Source of the DNA: Eledone cirrhosa
Taxonomy: Eukaryota
Length of the DNA: 64,000 nucleotides
Direction of reading: 5' to 3'
Assembly (NCBI GenBank): GCA_964016885.1
Contig: OZ024742.1
Span: 313,968,001 to 314,032,000, forward strand
Numbering within the stretch: position 1 is the stretch's first letter; each line of letters opens with the position of its first letter. The position numbers and the translations under genes are program-made. This document shows positions 1 to 56,456 of the stretch, one piece after another. The notes under the pieces are model-generated. The model worked only from the letters and a program-made list of their open reading frames with translations, made no database searches and was not told where the DNA came from.

Positions 1-1937
1 AATAAACCTTTCAAGGATTTACACCAGTCCAGCCTCCTGTTATTTTATTTATAATTAACTCCGTATTCGCACCACCAACTACACAAACGAAGACGGGTGA
101 ACTGCACTGCGTTGAGTACTCTTCATAATATTACACCAGGATTGACCATACGGAATGACCAGTTCTATCCAGTGGTGAATCAACAAACCTAAAGAAATAA
201 TGCTCCTATAATGTTGAACACTTCAAAATGTAATATTGAACAGCGTAACTGACTTCAGTGTACAGCTATTACCAGCATGGGATTAACTGATCTACTTACC
301 ATTCGGATTTTGGCTTATCTACCGCCACCTGATACTACTTCCTTGTCGGGATGATTCCGATTCCGACAAAACTCTACGTATTATACTAAAACATGTATTG
401 TATTGATTGAATTCTCTACTCTATACCTCAGGACTTTTTGTGACTCGCACTGAATTCGGAACCCGAACTTTACACTAGGTACAACCTGTCACCATTCCAT
501 CTCCTCCATCCTCTATATCTATATGTACAACTTGTATTATCTTACTACAACTTGATCCATATTGATTCTTATTTACGTTTATTAATTTTTTTACTATCTC
601 ATTAATGTATATTTTATTAATTTTTTGTTGTTATTTTATTAATGTATTTTTATCAATGTACTATCTTTATATTGGTATTTTATCTTTGTACGCTGCTTTT
701 ATAATTTTTTCGTATTTTTTTTTTTTGTAACTTTTCCTTACTCAGGTCATTATGCACCTTTCACAGCCCCCTACCCACCTAAGAACCACACTACCTATAA
801 CCCGGACTAACTGGAACTCTAAAATAATTTTGGTCTATTTGCACTTTTCATTGGGTTGTTACCTTCGACTTGTGTGGTGGCTTTTTCCCGGCTGCGCGCT
901 GGGCACTCGGTAAGTTCAGCCTTCCTTGAGTGCTCGGAAAAGTAAATTTCTCCTCTTTCGGTAAATGAAATTACTCGGAGCGGATTGCTTTGCCCCGGTC
1001 CCACCGCGTCCCCTGTTTTGGCCGCCACATTATACTTGTACCTACAAACTCCAGGTTTGGGCATAACTATTAGCTGTATCATGCCTCTACTGACACGTAA
1101 ATAAACCCCTAATGTGTGATTTAATAGTATTCGTGGTATAGACGATGGCCTGTCGAAATTGTGGAGTTCCCGCTAGCGATCCCGGGGCCAAAGTTAGCTA
1201 CGTTCCTAGAGTACTCGGAAAAATTAATTTCCATTTCCTTCGCTGGACGATACCACTCGAGACTGGCTGACTCATGTTGGTGGGTGTGTTGGCTGGGACT
1301 CCCAATCGAAATCTTTACTCTATATCCCATCCTAATATCTTATCGAGTTAAACATTTTTTTCATATAAGACTCTCTCCGTAAGTTCATTAAATATTAAAT
1401 AAATAAATCTCGCTACCTCTATTTTTCAATTTACCATTTTGCAATTTAATATTTTTAATTTAATTTAATTTCATCCTATAACTCGCAATATAAGTTTAAC
1501 GTTCCAATCTTCGGTTCACACATTAGACCATACAGACACCCATTATAGATTCTTTGGGTAGCATTTTTTTTTTCGCGGCATTTTCTAACATGAATGTAGT
1601 TTGACCCTTACACTACACTTCTTTCTCCCTTTCTTTCTTCCCCTTCTTCTTTGACGGAGTGGTGGTAGTATATTCGCCCCCTCACCAGATATTCACTGAT
1701 AGTTTTCAGTTGCCAACACTTTGAGGGCGGCTGGTTGCGAAGCTAGTTGGTCAGCCGTCCTCTCTGTCTCTGGTTTCTCGGACCCATGGTTTTTCGGACC
1801 CATGGCTTTTTACATATTCTTTTGTTATATTCCAATACCTGATGACATCACCGCATTCATATGGAAGCCGGTCATTGAAATGATCATAGTATAATAAACC
1901 TTTAAAGGATTTACACCAGTCCAGCCTCCTGTTATTT
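1..1937 (+). mobile_element. HHR-bearing non-coding unit (period 1892 bp) with terminal direct repeat; PLE pLTR/retrozyme-like, continues left of the window
   Basis: 1-45 repeated at 1893-1937 (1 mismatch); HHR at 1835-1892 followed by AATAAA; ends at (AG)n; no long ORF. Confidence 0.65.
1835..1892 (+). ncRNA. Type I hammerhead ribozyme motif
   Basis: ATAC-CTGATGA-(imperfect stem II)-GAAA-TGATCA-TA-GTAT; stem I ATAC/GTAT; helix III ATGATCAT is palindromic; predicted cleavage 1888/1889. Confidence 0.8.
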
Positions 1938-1976
1938 CATAGAGAGAGAGAGAGAGAGAGAGAGAGAGAGAGAATT

Positions 1977-2140
1977 AGTGATTCGAGCGCAAGGAGTTTC
2001 GTATTTAAGGGCACTTATATAACTGGTAAGCTATACCAATAACTCGAGCGACAGAAGTTTTATGCTGAAAGGCACTTATCAAACTATTAAGCAATACCAG
2101 TGACTGGAGGACAAGGAGTTTCATGCTTAAGGACACTTAA
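1977..2140. repeat. Diverged ~61-bp minisatellite, ~3 copies
   Basis: recurring gtgactcgag..caaggagtttc..gcttaagggcactta..aact..taagc.atacca. Confidence 0.6.
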
Positions 2141-3162
2141 CACGCTGGACTATCCTTGGAATAATATATTTCATCATACAAAAAAAATAAGACATGTCCA
2201 TTAAAAGGAAATCGATATGTGCACGGGCATAGTTTGTTATTGTTTGTGCTGGTTATGCTTTTATAAAATTATCATTCACTTTTCTCTCCATGAGACTGAT
2301 CATGCTAATTAACACAACAGGATTTCAAATAACTTTCTGGCTGTTCTTTTTAAACTGATTTCTTCAATGTCTACAATTTAAGTAAGATCCTATAGTATAC
2401 TGAAACCTAATAGAAATTTAAAAGAATAATGAAAGTCAAATTTATTCTGGCAAAAATGACAAAATAAAATAGAATATATTCTGTTGAATATTTTATCATT
2501 TGAGAGCGGGTCATAGCAGTTTTGGTGTTGTTTATGCTTCACCATATATTCTGCATAAAGCGATAAGGGCCCATTAATTTTGAAATATTGAATAATTAAT
2601 TTTTCCCTTTTCATCAGTATTGTTGTGGCTTTCATCACTACTGTTCTTAATTTCTACTTTATTGATCTATATTTGTCGGGGCCTTTGTTGTTGTTGTTGT
2701 TGTTAATGCATTTTATTGTTGTTGTTACTGTTATTGTTGTTGTAGCTGTTGTTGTTGTTATTGATTAATTGCTGCTCTTATTCGATGTTGTTAAGGTGAT
2801 GGGTTGGTAGAATCGTTAGAGCATCGAAAAAAATGAATGAATTAAGGTATTTGTTTCAGCTCTTTAATTTCTAAGTTAATTTTGCCTTCCATTATTCCTG
2901 CGTCAATAAAGTACCCATACGAGTCAAGTACTAGTGTCGACGTAACCGACTTTCTTCTCCCAAAGTTGCTGGTCTTTTGCCTTTGTCGAAAACCATTATT
3001 TGATGTTAATGTCGCCGTAGTTGTTATGGAATTTGATGGGCAGAATATTACCATTGACATTATCATTGCTCAGCTTGTAGCTATTATAGTTGTGGATGAT
3101 TTAGTTGGTGTTGTTTTATTATTATGGCTAATCGTAGTTGTTGTGACTCTTATGTTCATTAT

Positions 3163-3715
3163 ACATTACTGCAGTTCATTAATTTAATTTAGCCTCTTGC
3201 CTTCCATCACTCGTAAAAACGCCCACGAAATACGAGAATTTCAGGAGCTGGTGTAGTTATGCGCTAACTTCAGCACTCAGTCATCAGAGTAGGGTTAGTC
3301 TAAAGGCCAAACTCGTTATCTTCATTCGGTGTTGTGCTTACCCTTACTTAAGGTGATGAATATTGGGTATAACCGAGAGAAAATACGCACGAATACAAGC
3401 GGCCGAAATTGTGTTCCTCCGAAGGATCTTTCGAGAAACGTTTCTCGATAGGGTTCGTTAGCCAAGAAATCACGGAGCCGCTTTATGTACAGCCACTATT
3501 TCTCCGAATTGAGAGACCACAGCTCTGATTATATAGACATATAGTTAGAAAATATACAGAAGGAATCGTTGGACAGATTTAACAGGTAAAGCCAACCAAG
3601 AGGAGACACAGTGATAGAACATGATTTGTTTGGATAACATTAATCAGGTCCCTTTGGAGACTGTTGTCTCTGATAGGTGCCTTTGGAAGGCGTGAATGAG
3701 GACGCTGCCACCAAG
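3163..3715 (+). mobile_element. Degenerate RTE-clade LINE 3' fragment with an inverted 5' piece
   Basis: homologous to 7257-7847 and 44391-45196; ~3183-3233 is the reverse complement of the segment encoding YLGVMFTSDGRQEAEL. Confidence 0.7.
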
Positions 3716-3906
3716 CGGTCGTAGTAGTAGTTGTTGTTACTATGCATGTCGTAGTGATTCCTATTTTCAAGATTGATATTGCTGTTATTTTTATTGCTTT
3801 GTTATTGCGACTTATCCCTAGCTCAAGTCTAATCAAGCAGACATATGATCAAAATAATATCAGCCATGATCATACTTTTCTTTTATGTGTATTATGTACT
3901 TCCTTA

Positions 3907-55609: not shown

Positions 55610-55956
55610 TCTATAACTATATATATAAAAGCGAGAATGTGTGTGTGTCTGTGTACAACTTTGGATACCTAAGGCTTTTACAATTACCAACTGAATTTGA
55701 CCAAATTTTCTGTGCACGTTGCACAGGTCGCTAAGATGGTCACATCGCAAAATTTTCAAATCGACCCACGTTGAGCAATAAAAAATCGATATCAAAATTA
55801 TCGGTAGCAAAATTGATGTAAGGGAGATAACCAACTTTATTGACAGAAATATAAACATCAGATTCATTTGAACATAAATCACTAATATTATCGTTTGTTT
55901 CTTGTTTATTCTGTGTTGCATTTCAAATCCCGGGCATCGCCGGGTAAATCTGCTAG
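55610..55956 (+). mobile_element. Non-autonomous Helitron-like element
   Basis: 5' TCTATA..TATAAAA-(GT)n; 3' CCCGGGCATCGCCGGG hairpin then CTAG-T. Confidence 0.65.
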
Positions 55957-56031
55957 TATATATATATATATATATATATATATATATATATTCACGGGTG
56001 TTTTTCCTTTTCCGTACAACTTCACTCAGAA

Positions 56032-56070
56032 CGAGCTGATGATCCGCATAAGGTGAAACATTTGTTCTCG
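56032..56070 (+). ncRNA. Minimal type I hammerhead, family C
   Basis: cgag-CTGATGA-tccgcataaggt-GAAA-catttg-TT-ctcg. Confidence 0.75.
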
Positions 56071-56409
56071 GTATGATGAACTAACTGTTGTGGAACTACT
56101 TATATATATATATATATATATATATATATATATATATATATATATATATATATATATATATGAAAAGATTCAGGACCCCGACGACGGCTGAGCTCCGGCC
56201 GTTTCGACACCTAGATCCGAACTCTAGCTGTCTAAACGGTCAGAGCTTAGCCGTCAGGGTCTTGAATCTTTTCATATTGCCCACTATACTACCCCAAATA
56301 TCGAGTACTCTGGTGAGTTACGGTCTAGCTGGATTTTACCACACCCTATCTGATATATATATATATATCCCCTGTTTTCAAAGTCCAGGAGTTGCAAGAG
56401 TGGGATGGA

Positions 56410-56456
56410 TCGTGCTGATAATGAGAAGCAGTTCAGTTCGAAATGCGCATCCACGA
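56410..56456 (+). ncRNA. Hammerhead motif with C3/A8 core mismatch
   Basis: tcgtg-CTGATAA-(stem II)-GAAA-TGCGCA-TC-cacga. Confidence 0.7.

What the first reader, a model, noticed from the sequence alone, without database searches (positions are those of the whole stretch)
1835..56456. About 14 families (about 25 copies) of hammerhead ribozyme motifs with palindromic helix III, in microsatellite-flanked islands
Seen: many short islands between (TA)n tracts read stem I - CUGANGA - stem II - GAAA - helix III - UH - stem I, often followed by AATAAA. Helix III is usually a palindrome that differs by family: ATGATCAT (1835), ATATATAT (10014), ACTAATTAGT (10831), ACGATCGT (18638), ACTCGAGT (23108), near-ACAGGACTAGTCCTGT (25513), AGTACT (37228), ACCGGT (37684), ACTACGTAGT (42117), ACAATTGT (53684), ATGCGCAT (56410). 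Established: Penelope-like elements and metazoan non-LTR retrozymes carry minimal type-I HHRs whose palindromic helix III permits dimeric cleavage. Inference: this density (about one per 2.5 kb) and diversity indicate a large (TA)n-targeted, ribozyme-based mobile system, and family-specific palindromes could act as self-recognition codes for dimer formation.
Basis: partly seen in the sequence, partly recalled or inferred. Interest (0 to 1): 0.88.

Follow-up and report, generated by a model that had tools for sequence, protein, structure and literature searches.

The report
Penelope-element hammerheads and one retrozyme array
These hammerhead-ribozyme motifs are real and sit at the ends of Penelope-type jumping genes and of short non-coding repeats inserted in TA runs; their palindromes likely let two copies of the same RNA pair up and cut, an arrangement already published, and they do not look like family passwords.

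Summary
In detail: 24 sites have an intact type-I hammerhead core (17 insertions; about 17 families counting broken copies), against about 0.1 in shuffles. The window is ordinary for its genome: blind 10-kb samples give 1.4 per 10 kb (0.27-0.58 million genome-wide), and Rfam's gathering thresholds catch none in the window.

It is not a new system. Seven families are tied to Penelope-like element (PLE) proteins (four Hydra-type, three Neptune-like, one by a single locus). Three are non-coding tandem units (retrozymes). Copies show the known PLE footprint: TA flanks, two divergent arms, two fixed 3' ends.

The palindromes are under selection: centre positions pair in 23 of 26 clusters (null 4.0) and covary, which fits published dimer cleavage. 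The password idea is not supported: unrelated families share palindromes, and stem I, swapped in any dimer, already blocks 89 of 89 cross-family pairs.

Best extra: arrays of the 560-bp retrozyme carry private variants through both arms, and one alternates with period two, as expected from reverse transcription of a monomer or dimer RNA circle. Cleavage and expression are untested. This scan reported the same kind of thing several times before on other DNA of this genome.

The parts
1..1940 (+). F1: one 1,892-bp non-coding unit between two same-strand hammerheads (core 1839, helix III ATGATCAT, predicted cut after 1888; the first hammerhead ends just before base 1)
9793..10207 (.). F2 (Hydra-type PLE end): divergent arms, cores 9897(-) and 10022(+), helix III ATATATAT; tail 10127-10207 on the + arm
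10472..10628 (-). F2-related copy, core 10586, helix III shrunk to ATAT
10762..12133 (.). F3 retrozyme: 2.2 tandem 561-bp units on the minus strand (cores 10907, 11468; helix III ACTAATTAGT) plus an inverted arm 11969-12133 ending in the 127-nt tail
12941..18843 (.). F4 (Hydra-type PLE): arms with cores 13273(-) and 18648(+), helix III ACGATCGT, 116-nt domain II; the microsatellite-rich middle is the element's long 3' UTR; tail 12941-13078
19242..19588 (-). F13: truncated copy, core 19448, helix III ACATTACTGT, inverted arm 19505-19587; protein partner not found
20105..20375 (-). F14: partial hammerhead, helix III ACAATTGT near 20158; not verified further
23104..23365 (+). F5: core 23112 decayed (CTAATGA), helix III ACTCGAGT; fixed 3' end; protein partner not found
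24533..24650 (.). F6 decayed inverted copy
25511..25649 (+). F6: core 25518, 16-nt helix III that can also close as a monomer hairpin
26249..26440 (.). F6 inverted pair, cores 26308(-) and 26314(+)
26545..26783 (.).
28226..28546 (-). F16: core 28314, odd-length helix III ACATTGT
28614..29031 (.). F2 inverted pair, cores 28712(-) and 28846(+)
36302..37413 (.). F7: 5'-truncated PLE on the minus strand (core 36546, AGAACT) with inverted arm 37132-37413 (core 37232, AGTACT)
36779..37132 (-). F7 GIY-YIG endonuclease fragment, 236 bp upstream of the hammerhead here and in other loci
37439..37779 (.). F8 (Neptune-like PLE end): inverted pair, U3-A8 core at 37592(-), helix III ACCGGT
38008..38518 (-). 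F9 (Hydra-type pLTR): core 38206, helix III ATATGTAT
41719..42447 (+). F10: U3-A8 core 42122, helix III ACTACGTAGT, inverted arm 41719-41788; downstream of a Neptune-like endonuclease in one locus
47624..50853 (.). F2: 5'-truncated Hydra-type PLE on the minus strand (core 47802) with inverted arm 49880-50853 (core 50769)
49084..49767 (-). C-terminal 227 aa of the F2 protein: CxCx5C linker, GIY-YIG-like core, CxxC and CxH motifs
53652..53857 (.). F11 (Hydra-type end): inverted pair, core 53717(-), helix III ACAATTGT, tail 53792-53857
55992..56100 (+). F11 copy, core 56036, helix III ACATTTGT
56370..56607 (+). F12: decayed copy of an older tandem unit of roughly 320 bp, helix III ATGCGCAT

Best explanation
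The islands are the 3' ends (pseudo-LTRs) of many Penelope-like element families plus non-coding tandem units that likely borrow the same enzymes, and each carries a type-I hammerhead whose self-complementary helix III is predicted to form between two copies of the RNA rather than within one. Shown here: the motifs, their place in pLTRs around RT/GIY-YIG ORFs (F2, F4, F9; endonuclease just upstream for F7, F8, F11; one locus for F10), TA flanks, two divergent arms per insertion with one ending at each of two fixed 3' sites, agreement of the arms at polymorphic sites, and covariation inside helix III. Inferred: the PLE protein cuts both strands in (TA)n and primes two cDNAs on one RNA (or sister RNAs of one locus) at two start sites downstream of the hammerhead; most cDNAs stop early, leaving short islands. 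Inferred: in tandem transcripts neighbouring hammerheads swap helix III and stem I, cut, and release units that can be circularised, while a lone unit cannot cut itself; such circles are then copied round and round into two-armed arrays (F3). The variety of palindromes follows from drift through G-U intermediates under the one constraint of self-pairing.
For: Full elements: L064, hammerhead - 749-aa ORF - hammerhead; L309 and L314, 830-aa ORF between two F4 pLTRs. Hydra motifs DKT, CxCx5C, CxxC..E, CxH in F2 and F4; DKG and Cx2-5CxxC in F8 (definitions in PMC8557442). 3' ends followed by TA in 39 of 41 (F4), 29 of 30 (F9), 35 of 41 (F11) against a 9% baseline. Two fixed ends per family; the tail is on the short arm in L056 and L062, which excludes simple fold-back copying. 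Arms differ at 8 polymorphic sites where 109 are expected for a random partner, 20 pairs. Helix III unconstrained: 107 of 120 blind hits are self-complementary, shuffles give 1-7 hits; centre pairs in 23 of 26 clusters, null 4.0; central pair UA 14, UG 11, CG 5, other 2 of 32 homologues. Dimer fold 8-17 kcal/mol below two monomers in 10 of 10 motifs that could be compared. F3: 14 of 14 two-armed arrays with both ends in view have exactly one tail; private variants run through all covering units of both arms in L326, L327, L331, L345, L346; L325 alternates 155T/506G through both arms.
Against: No cleavage or expression data. In most motifs the unconstrained fold is still lower in energy than the hammerhead fold, and these energies ignore tertiary contacts and RNA concentration. 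F6, F15 and similar families have a long helix III that can close as a monomer. F7's majority helix III (AGAACT) leaves two A-A mismatches and is unfavourable as a duplex (+2.4). A related lizard PLE hammerhead cut only with protein present and was dispensable for insertion in vitro, and no read ends were found at its cut site (PMC11167929). No protein was found for F5, F6, F13-F16. F1, F5, F6 and F15 are tied to Hydra only by a short tail motif. L324 has a second variant (497G) that is scattered, not periodic, and 8 of 24 F3 arrays show one arm only. Gene conversion or assembly polishing could also make arms alike.
Confidence: 0.8

Rival explanations
1. The motifs belong to PLEs, but they cut mainly as protein-assisted monomers, or serve as structural or binding elements and rarely cut; the palindrome is incidental.
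For: The lizard PAc hammerhead needs protein and is dispensable for insertion in vitro. In-vitro rates of PLE hammerheads are low even as dimers. Some families here can close helix III alone.
Against: The two innermost opposite positions, which would be loop in a monomer, pair in 23 of 26 clusters and covary. Six-nt segments cannot form a monomer hairpin beyond one pair.
Confidence: 0.12
2. The palindromes were diversified by selection as family passwords, so that RNAs dimerise only with their own family.
For: 20 different 6-10-nt sequences among 26 clusters; 78 of 89 cross-family pairs cannot pair helix III well.
Against: Collisions are not depleted (9 against 3.7 expected, though some sharing clusters are kin). 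ATATATAT, ATGCGCAT and ACTAGT each occur in families with unrelated stems I and II. Stem I is exchanged in a type-I dimer and alone excludes 89 of 89 pairs. The two arms of an insertion come from one source, not from any family member.
Confidence: 0.06
3. The F3-type arrays are satellites homogenised after insertion by unequal crossing-over and gene conversion, not products of rolling reverse transcription.
For: The preprint on animal retrozymes cites unequal crossover for tandem growth. Period-two patterns also arise in satellites (recalled). L324's 497G is aperiodic.
Against: The family is about 99% identical across many chromosomes. Every two-armed array with both ends in view ends at the same two sites in TA, and private variants cross the inversion point.
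Confidence: 0.15
4. An independent ribozyme-driven mobile system, or one moved by LINEs rather than PLEs.
For: Six families have no protein partner in my loci; LINEs are abundant here.
Against: Seven families are tied to PLE ORFs. The two-arm, two-end footprint is the published PLE one and is shared by the non-coding units.
Confidence: 0.04
5. Chance matches in AT-rich, repetitive DNA.
For: Loose one-mismatch descriptors do return probable false rows (about 10 of 38; 3 of 34 clusters).
Against: 120 blind hits against 1-7 shuffled; covariation in stems I, II and III.
Confidence: 0.01

Closest known systems
Minimal and palindromic-helix-III type-I hammerheads in pLTRs of metazoan PLEs (Cervera and de la Pena 2014, PMC4209133; read parts 1-2 of 4)
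   Same: Type-I topology, place in pLTRs, mostly solo or opposite-strand pairs from truncated copies, many families per genome, U3-A8 variant, palindromic helix III, proposed dimer action.
   Different: Here helix III is mostly 6-10 nt, domain II reaches 116 nt, and the estimated number (0.27-0.58 million) is far above their 2,000-9,000 per genome. Their supplementary figures, which may show longer palindromes, were not seen.
Hydra clade of PLEs (Craig et al. 2021, PMC8557442; section 11, passages, supplement table rows)
   Same: DKT, CxCx5C, CxxC and CxH, no CCHH, hammerhead present, (TA)n target, inverted 5'-truncated arm and tail. One octopus family (Hydra-1_Obim) is already listed.
   Different: RWR in place of RWK; units of 3.7 kb (F2) and 7.2 kb (F4) rather than under 3 kb; tails of about 57-165 nt rather than 30-40; very high copy number (72,294 first-look candidates for the F2 endonuclease).
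Metazoan non-LTR retrozymes (Cervera and de la Pena 2020, PMC7229834, passages; Li, Clavereau and Pollet 2026, bioRxiv 10.64898/2026.07.22.740005, part 1 of 5 and passages)
   Same: Non-coding tandem units with one type-I hammerhead each; PLEs proposed as origin and mobiliser; axolotl motifs work better as dimers.
   Different: Units are longer (560 bp and 1.9 kb against 150-450). The arrays show the PLE two-arm footprint and array-private variants; in the preprint's text 'tail' has no occurrence and 'inverted' only one, in a reference title.
Lizard Poseidon element PAc (Frangieh et al. 2024, PMC11167929; read parts 1-2 of 4)
   Same: Two adjacent RT start sites bound the tail; both DNA strands are cut and extended; AT-rich targets.
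   Different: Different clade; its hammerhead overlaps the ORF start; not tested on circles or retrozymes in the parts I read.

Membership tests
Type-I hammerhead ribozyme | CUGANGA / GAAA / UH core with stem I closing the ends | tested here: met
   24 intact cores in the window, 2 of them the U3-A8 variant
Type-I hammerhead ribozyme | Three helices supported by covariation | tested here: met
   95.4% of cells paired; 9 of 19 pairs with double changes; slid controls 34-64% (one homologous group of 32 picked by stem I pattern, so stem I support is partly built in)
Type-I hammerhead ribozyme | Match to an Rfam hammerhead model at gathering score | tested here: not met
   0 matches of any family; none among the 150 of 224 weak matches shown
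Type-I hammerhead ribozyme | Self-cleavage after UH | not testable with these tools
   needs in-vitro transcription or RNA end mapping
PLE pLTR hammerheads | Motif in repeats flanking an RT + GIY-YIG ORF | tested here: met
   F2 (L064), F4 (L309, L314), F9 before an ORF start (L258, L264); endonuclease upstream for F7, F8, F11; F10 one locus. Not shown for F5, F6, F13-F16
PLE pLTR hammerheads | Palindromic helix III and loop 3 | tested here: met
   107 of 120 blind hits; 23 of 26 clusters
PLE insertions | 5' truncation, inverted pLTR, optional tail | tested here: met
Hydra clade (F2, F4) | DKT, CxCx5C linker, CxxC and CxH around E and N, no CCHH | tested here: met
Hydra clade (F2, F4) | N-terminal RWK motif | tested here: inconclusive
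   RWR in both
Hydra clade (F2, F4) | Insertion in (TA)n | tested here: met
   F4 39 of 41, F2 83 of 125 ends followed by TA; baseline 9%
Hydra clade (F2, F4) | Generally shorter than 3 kb | tested here: not met
   3.7 kb and 7.2 kb between pLTR hammerheads; a tendency in the paper, not a strict rule
Hydra and Neptune/Nematis clades | Placement in an RT tree with named reference elements | not tested
   no reference proteins were in hand; clade names rest on motifs
Neptune-like PLE (F8, F7, F10) | DKG, Cx2-5CxxC linker, canonical GIY-YIG | tested here: inconclusive
   F8 has all three; F7 has linker and GIY-YIG but DKF; F10 rests on one locus
Non-LTR retrozyme (F3, F1, F12) | Non-coding tandem units, a type-I hammerhead in each | tested here: met
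   F3 arrays up to about 16 units, longest frame 82 aa; F1 longest frame 117 aa; F12 tandem copies read by eye
Non-LTR retrozyme (F3, F1, F12) | Unit of 150-450 bp | tested here: not met
   F3 558-561 bp, F1 1,892 bp; F12 about 320 bp fits
Non-LTR retrozyme (F3, F1, F12) | Expressed as linear and circular RNA | not testable with these tools
   needs RNA from the animal

The most novel reading that the evidence does not exclude
This genome preserves a direct record of how retrozymes move: a Penelope protein copies one ribozyme-made RNA circle many times from two adjacent start sites onto both ends of a cut TA run, and the array with strictly alternating variants in both arms (L325) is the print of a two-unit circle. 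With several hundred thousand hammerheads that Rfam thresholds miss, it would be among the richest ribozyme genomes described.
Probability: 0.5. Interest if true: 0.6.

Novelty: new member of a known kind. Interest (0 to 1): 0.36.

Why it matters
The core claim (dimer-type hammerheads in Penelope elements, TA targeting) is published. Three things add value. First, scale: an estimated 0.27-0.58 million motifs, with none in the window caught by Rfam thresholds. Second, natural covariation in the would-be loop of helix III gives sequence support for dimer pairing and ready-made constructs. Third, the F3 arrays give a young, testable substrate for the open question whether PLE proteins reverse-transcribe retrozyme circles. 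The family-password idea would have been surprising but is not supported.

Tried and rejected
A strict descriptor found only 4 sites because stem II often starts with a mismatch. Rfam gave only microRNA-like noise on microsatellites and inverted repeats. Pfam does not recognise the Hydra-type proteins (0 families for 3 of 3), so their naming rests on motifs. Linking by neighbourhood misled for F1 and F4, which sat beside other families' ORFs; longer stretches corrected this. No protein partner was found for F5 (19 loci besides the window's own) or F6 (19 loci); F13-F16 were not searched genome-wide. RNA: no RNA holder listed, and no reads were laid, so expression and cut ends stay open. Fold-back copying as the source of the inverted arm was rejected. 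Two arms from different family members was rejected. 'This window is a hot spot' was rejected. Lunse, Weinberg and Breaker (RNA Biol, dimers of PLE hammerheads) is not held; I saw only its title and a review's summary, and it may already cover long palindromes or heterodimers. Literature searches: hammerhead + heterodimer + helix III + retrotransposon, 0 papers; octopus or cephalopod + Penelope + hammerhead or ribozyme, no study of these motifs among the 4 and 3 listed. These cover open-licence papers and bioRxiv only. Repbase and Dfam could not be consulted.

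
Full report
Observation. Descriptor scans recover all 11 quoted sites and the four predicted cut positions. Palindrome-requiring scans give 11 hits against 0.025 in shuffles and 17 rows against 0.13; I loosened them after seeing the window (one search found 4). 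The widest scan has 38 rows, 24 with an intact core, which come from 17 insertions. Four quoted sites are atypical or decayed copies (23108, 37228, 37684, 56410). Rfam finds nothing at gathering score.

Is the window special? No. In 78 blind 10-kb stretches a scan that leaves helix III free gave 120 hits against 1-7 in ten shuffles. Of these, 107 are self-complementary (G-U allowed, at most one unpaired opposite), or 1.37 per 10 kb (bootstrap 0.90-1.94), which extrapolates to 0.27-0.58 million; three stretches with tandem arrays inflate this, and capping gives 0.33 million. The window's 13 hits under the same scan are within the spread (P about 0.2). Outside those three stretches, 71 of 81 motifs have a (TA)5 run within 250 nt downstream, against 25% of random positions.

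What the islands are. Self-comparison shows that many motifs come as divergent inverted pairs. Two pairs enclose pieces of PLE endonuclease: 49084-49767 and 36779-37132 on the minus strand. The first has 150 of 150 scored genomic matches at 93-100% identity and 72,294 first-look candidates. L064 is a full element with the ATATATAT hammerhead on both sides of a 749-aa ORF. F4 is a second full element with an 830-aa ORF and a 3.7-kb microsatellite-rich 3' UTR (L309, L314). F9 precedes an ORF start and F11 follows an endonuclease by about 200 nt. F2 and F4 carry the motifs that Craig et al. give for the TA-targeting Hydra clade; that paper's table already lists an octopus Hydra family. F8 follows a protein with DKG, Cx2-5CxxC and a Pfam GIY-YIG in four loci, F7 follows its endonuclease by 230-237 nt in five, and F10 is linked in one. 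No tree with reference elements was built, so clade names rest on motifs. F1 (1,892 bp), F3 (558-561 bp) and F12 (about 320 bp) are non-coding tandem units. F5, F6 and F13-F16 have no protein partner in my loci.

How copies are made. Ten families show two fixed 3' ends downstream of the cut site, about 57-165 nt apart; F5 and F12 show one main end. In divergent pairs one arm stops at each. The tail can be on the short arm (L056, L062), so the inverted arm is not a fold-back of the long one. Across the 20 pairs that passed my filter, arms differ at 8 family-polymorphic sites where 109 are expected for a random family member; gene conversion could contribute. This fits the published PLE picture: inverted 5'-truncated arms and a tail, and a protein that cuts and extends both strands and starts at two adjacent internal sites. 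Both ends lie downstream of the cut site, so the template is uncut or re-ligated RNA (inference).

The palindrome. With helix III free, the two innermost opposite positions pair in 23 of 26 clusters of 6-10 nt (null 4.0, maximum 12 in 20,000 shuffles). Clusters are not all independent, 8 clusters with other lengths were left out, and 3 of the 34 look like false hits. In 32 homologues the central pair is U-A 14, U-G 11, C-G 5, unpaired 2, and the next pair A-U 25, G-C 6. These positions would be loop in a monomer. In-register monomer hairpins are unfavourable in all but F6, while homoduplexes are favourable in all but F7's AGAACT. The whole dimer fold is 8-17 kcal/mol below two monomers, although the free fold is usually lower still. 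Palindromic helix III and dimer action in PLE hammerheads were described in 2014 and reviewed later.

The code idea. In a type-I dimer the strand carrying the cut site comes from the partner, so stem I is exchanged along with helix III (follows from the topology). Among 89 cross-family pairs of window motifs, helix III is compatible in 11 and stem I in none. Identical palindromes are not avoided: 9 sharing pairs against 3.7 expected. Some of that is kinship, but ATATATAT, ATGCGCAT and ACTAGT each recur with unrelated stems. Families are therefore probably insulated from each other, but by ordinary divergence, and arm concordance points to pairing in cis.

The F3 retrozyme. The unit at 10762-12133 is about 99% identical across many chromosomes and forms arrays up to about 16 units. 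Of 24 arrays examined, chosen from the best hits, 16 have two arms; all 14 with both ends in view have one arm ending at each fixed site, in TA. Private variants run through every covering unit of both arms in L326, L327, L331, L345 and L346. L325 alternates 155T and 506G through both arms, and both arms end on a 155T unit. A circular monomer, and once a circular dimer, copied from both sides of one cut explains this most simply. Against it: L324's 497G is aperiodic, 8 arrays show one arm, and long tandem transcripts or later homogenisation are not excluded. The 2020 retrozyme paper names PLEs as a candidate mobiliser and reports minor circular dimers in vitro.

Earlier notes of this scan reached the same overall verdict on other DNA of this genome, including the two-arm retrozyme reading for other families; none matched the F3 sequence. 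They are not independent support. My two-end and arm tests preceded them; the variant test followed their lead.

Verdict. Real, and a new set of members of a known kind. No cleavage or RNA data were obtained. Supplements not seen that may bear on novelty: the figures of PMC4209133, the hammerhead file of PMC8557442 (only table rows were searched), and the preprint's files. Interest 0.36.

Noticed in passing
window 51830-53530 (-): 542-aa open RT frame of a non-LTR element (Pfam RVT_1, weak zf-RVT) flanked on both sides by (ATT)n; resembles TAA-targeting R4/Dong elements (recalled, not tested).
   Followed up: partly
window 24763-25440 (+) and 44480-45196: 3' ends of RTE-like LINEs; related pieces at 3157-3708 and 7251-7808.
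   Followed up: no
window 62851-64000 (+): Open frame of 383 aa running off the window, with a CCHC zinc knuckle; looks like ORF1 of an L1/Tx1-type element (recalled). A similar frame lies in L161.
   Followed up: partly
window 8744-9325, 22002-22090, 41033-41450, 46222-46435, 47028-47219, 58485-58783, 61908-62315: Many copies of one SINE-like repeat family, some in tandem (195-bp period at 8744-9143).
   Followed up: no
L118 (4 kb onward), L086, L148: Other two-armed hammerhead arrays in the blind sample: 467-bp unit (ACTAGT) and 310-bp unit (ACGCGT). In L086 the 467-bp array lies just downstream of a Neptune-like ORF.
   Followed up: partly
window 1893-1898, 10076-10081 and other F1, F2, F14, F16 copies: AATAAA sits at a fixed place 5-10 nt after the cut site, overlapping or touching the 3' strand of stem I; hammerhead folding might hide or expose a polyadenylation signal.
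   Followed up: no
window 26249-26440, 53652-53857, 26545-26783; loci L233-L251, L268-L286: In F6, F11 and F15 many copies stop within or just upstream of the hammerhead. Priming at the upstream pLTR of a transcript that starts there would give such short copies.
   Followed up: no
window 41600-41677 (+), 29690-29930 (-): Two further probable hammerhead-derived islands (helix III AGCAGCGATTCTTTGCT; ACAATTGT) with damaged cores.
   Followed up: no
clusters (F6, F15 and a 24-nt helix III family): Families with a long helix III keep a short palindrome (CTAG, GAGCTC, TTAA) in the middle of a monomer-capable loop, like a kissing-loop dimer site.
   Followed up: partly
window 40251-40667; 12381-12769; 21064-21885: A 91-bp tandem repeat (4.6 copies), a pyrimidine-rich 9-bp minisatellite and a long (ACC)n-like array.
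   Followed up: no
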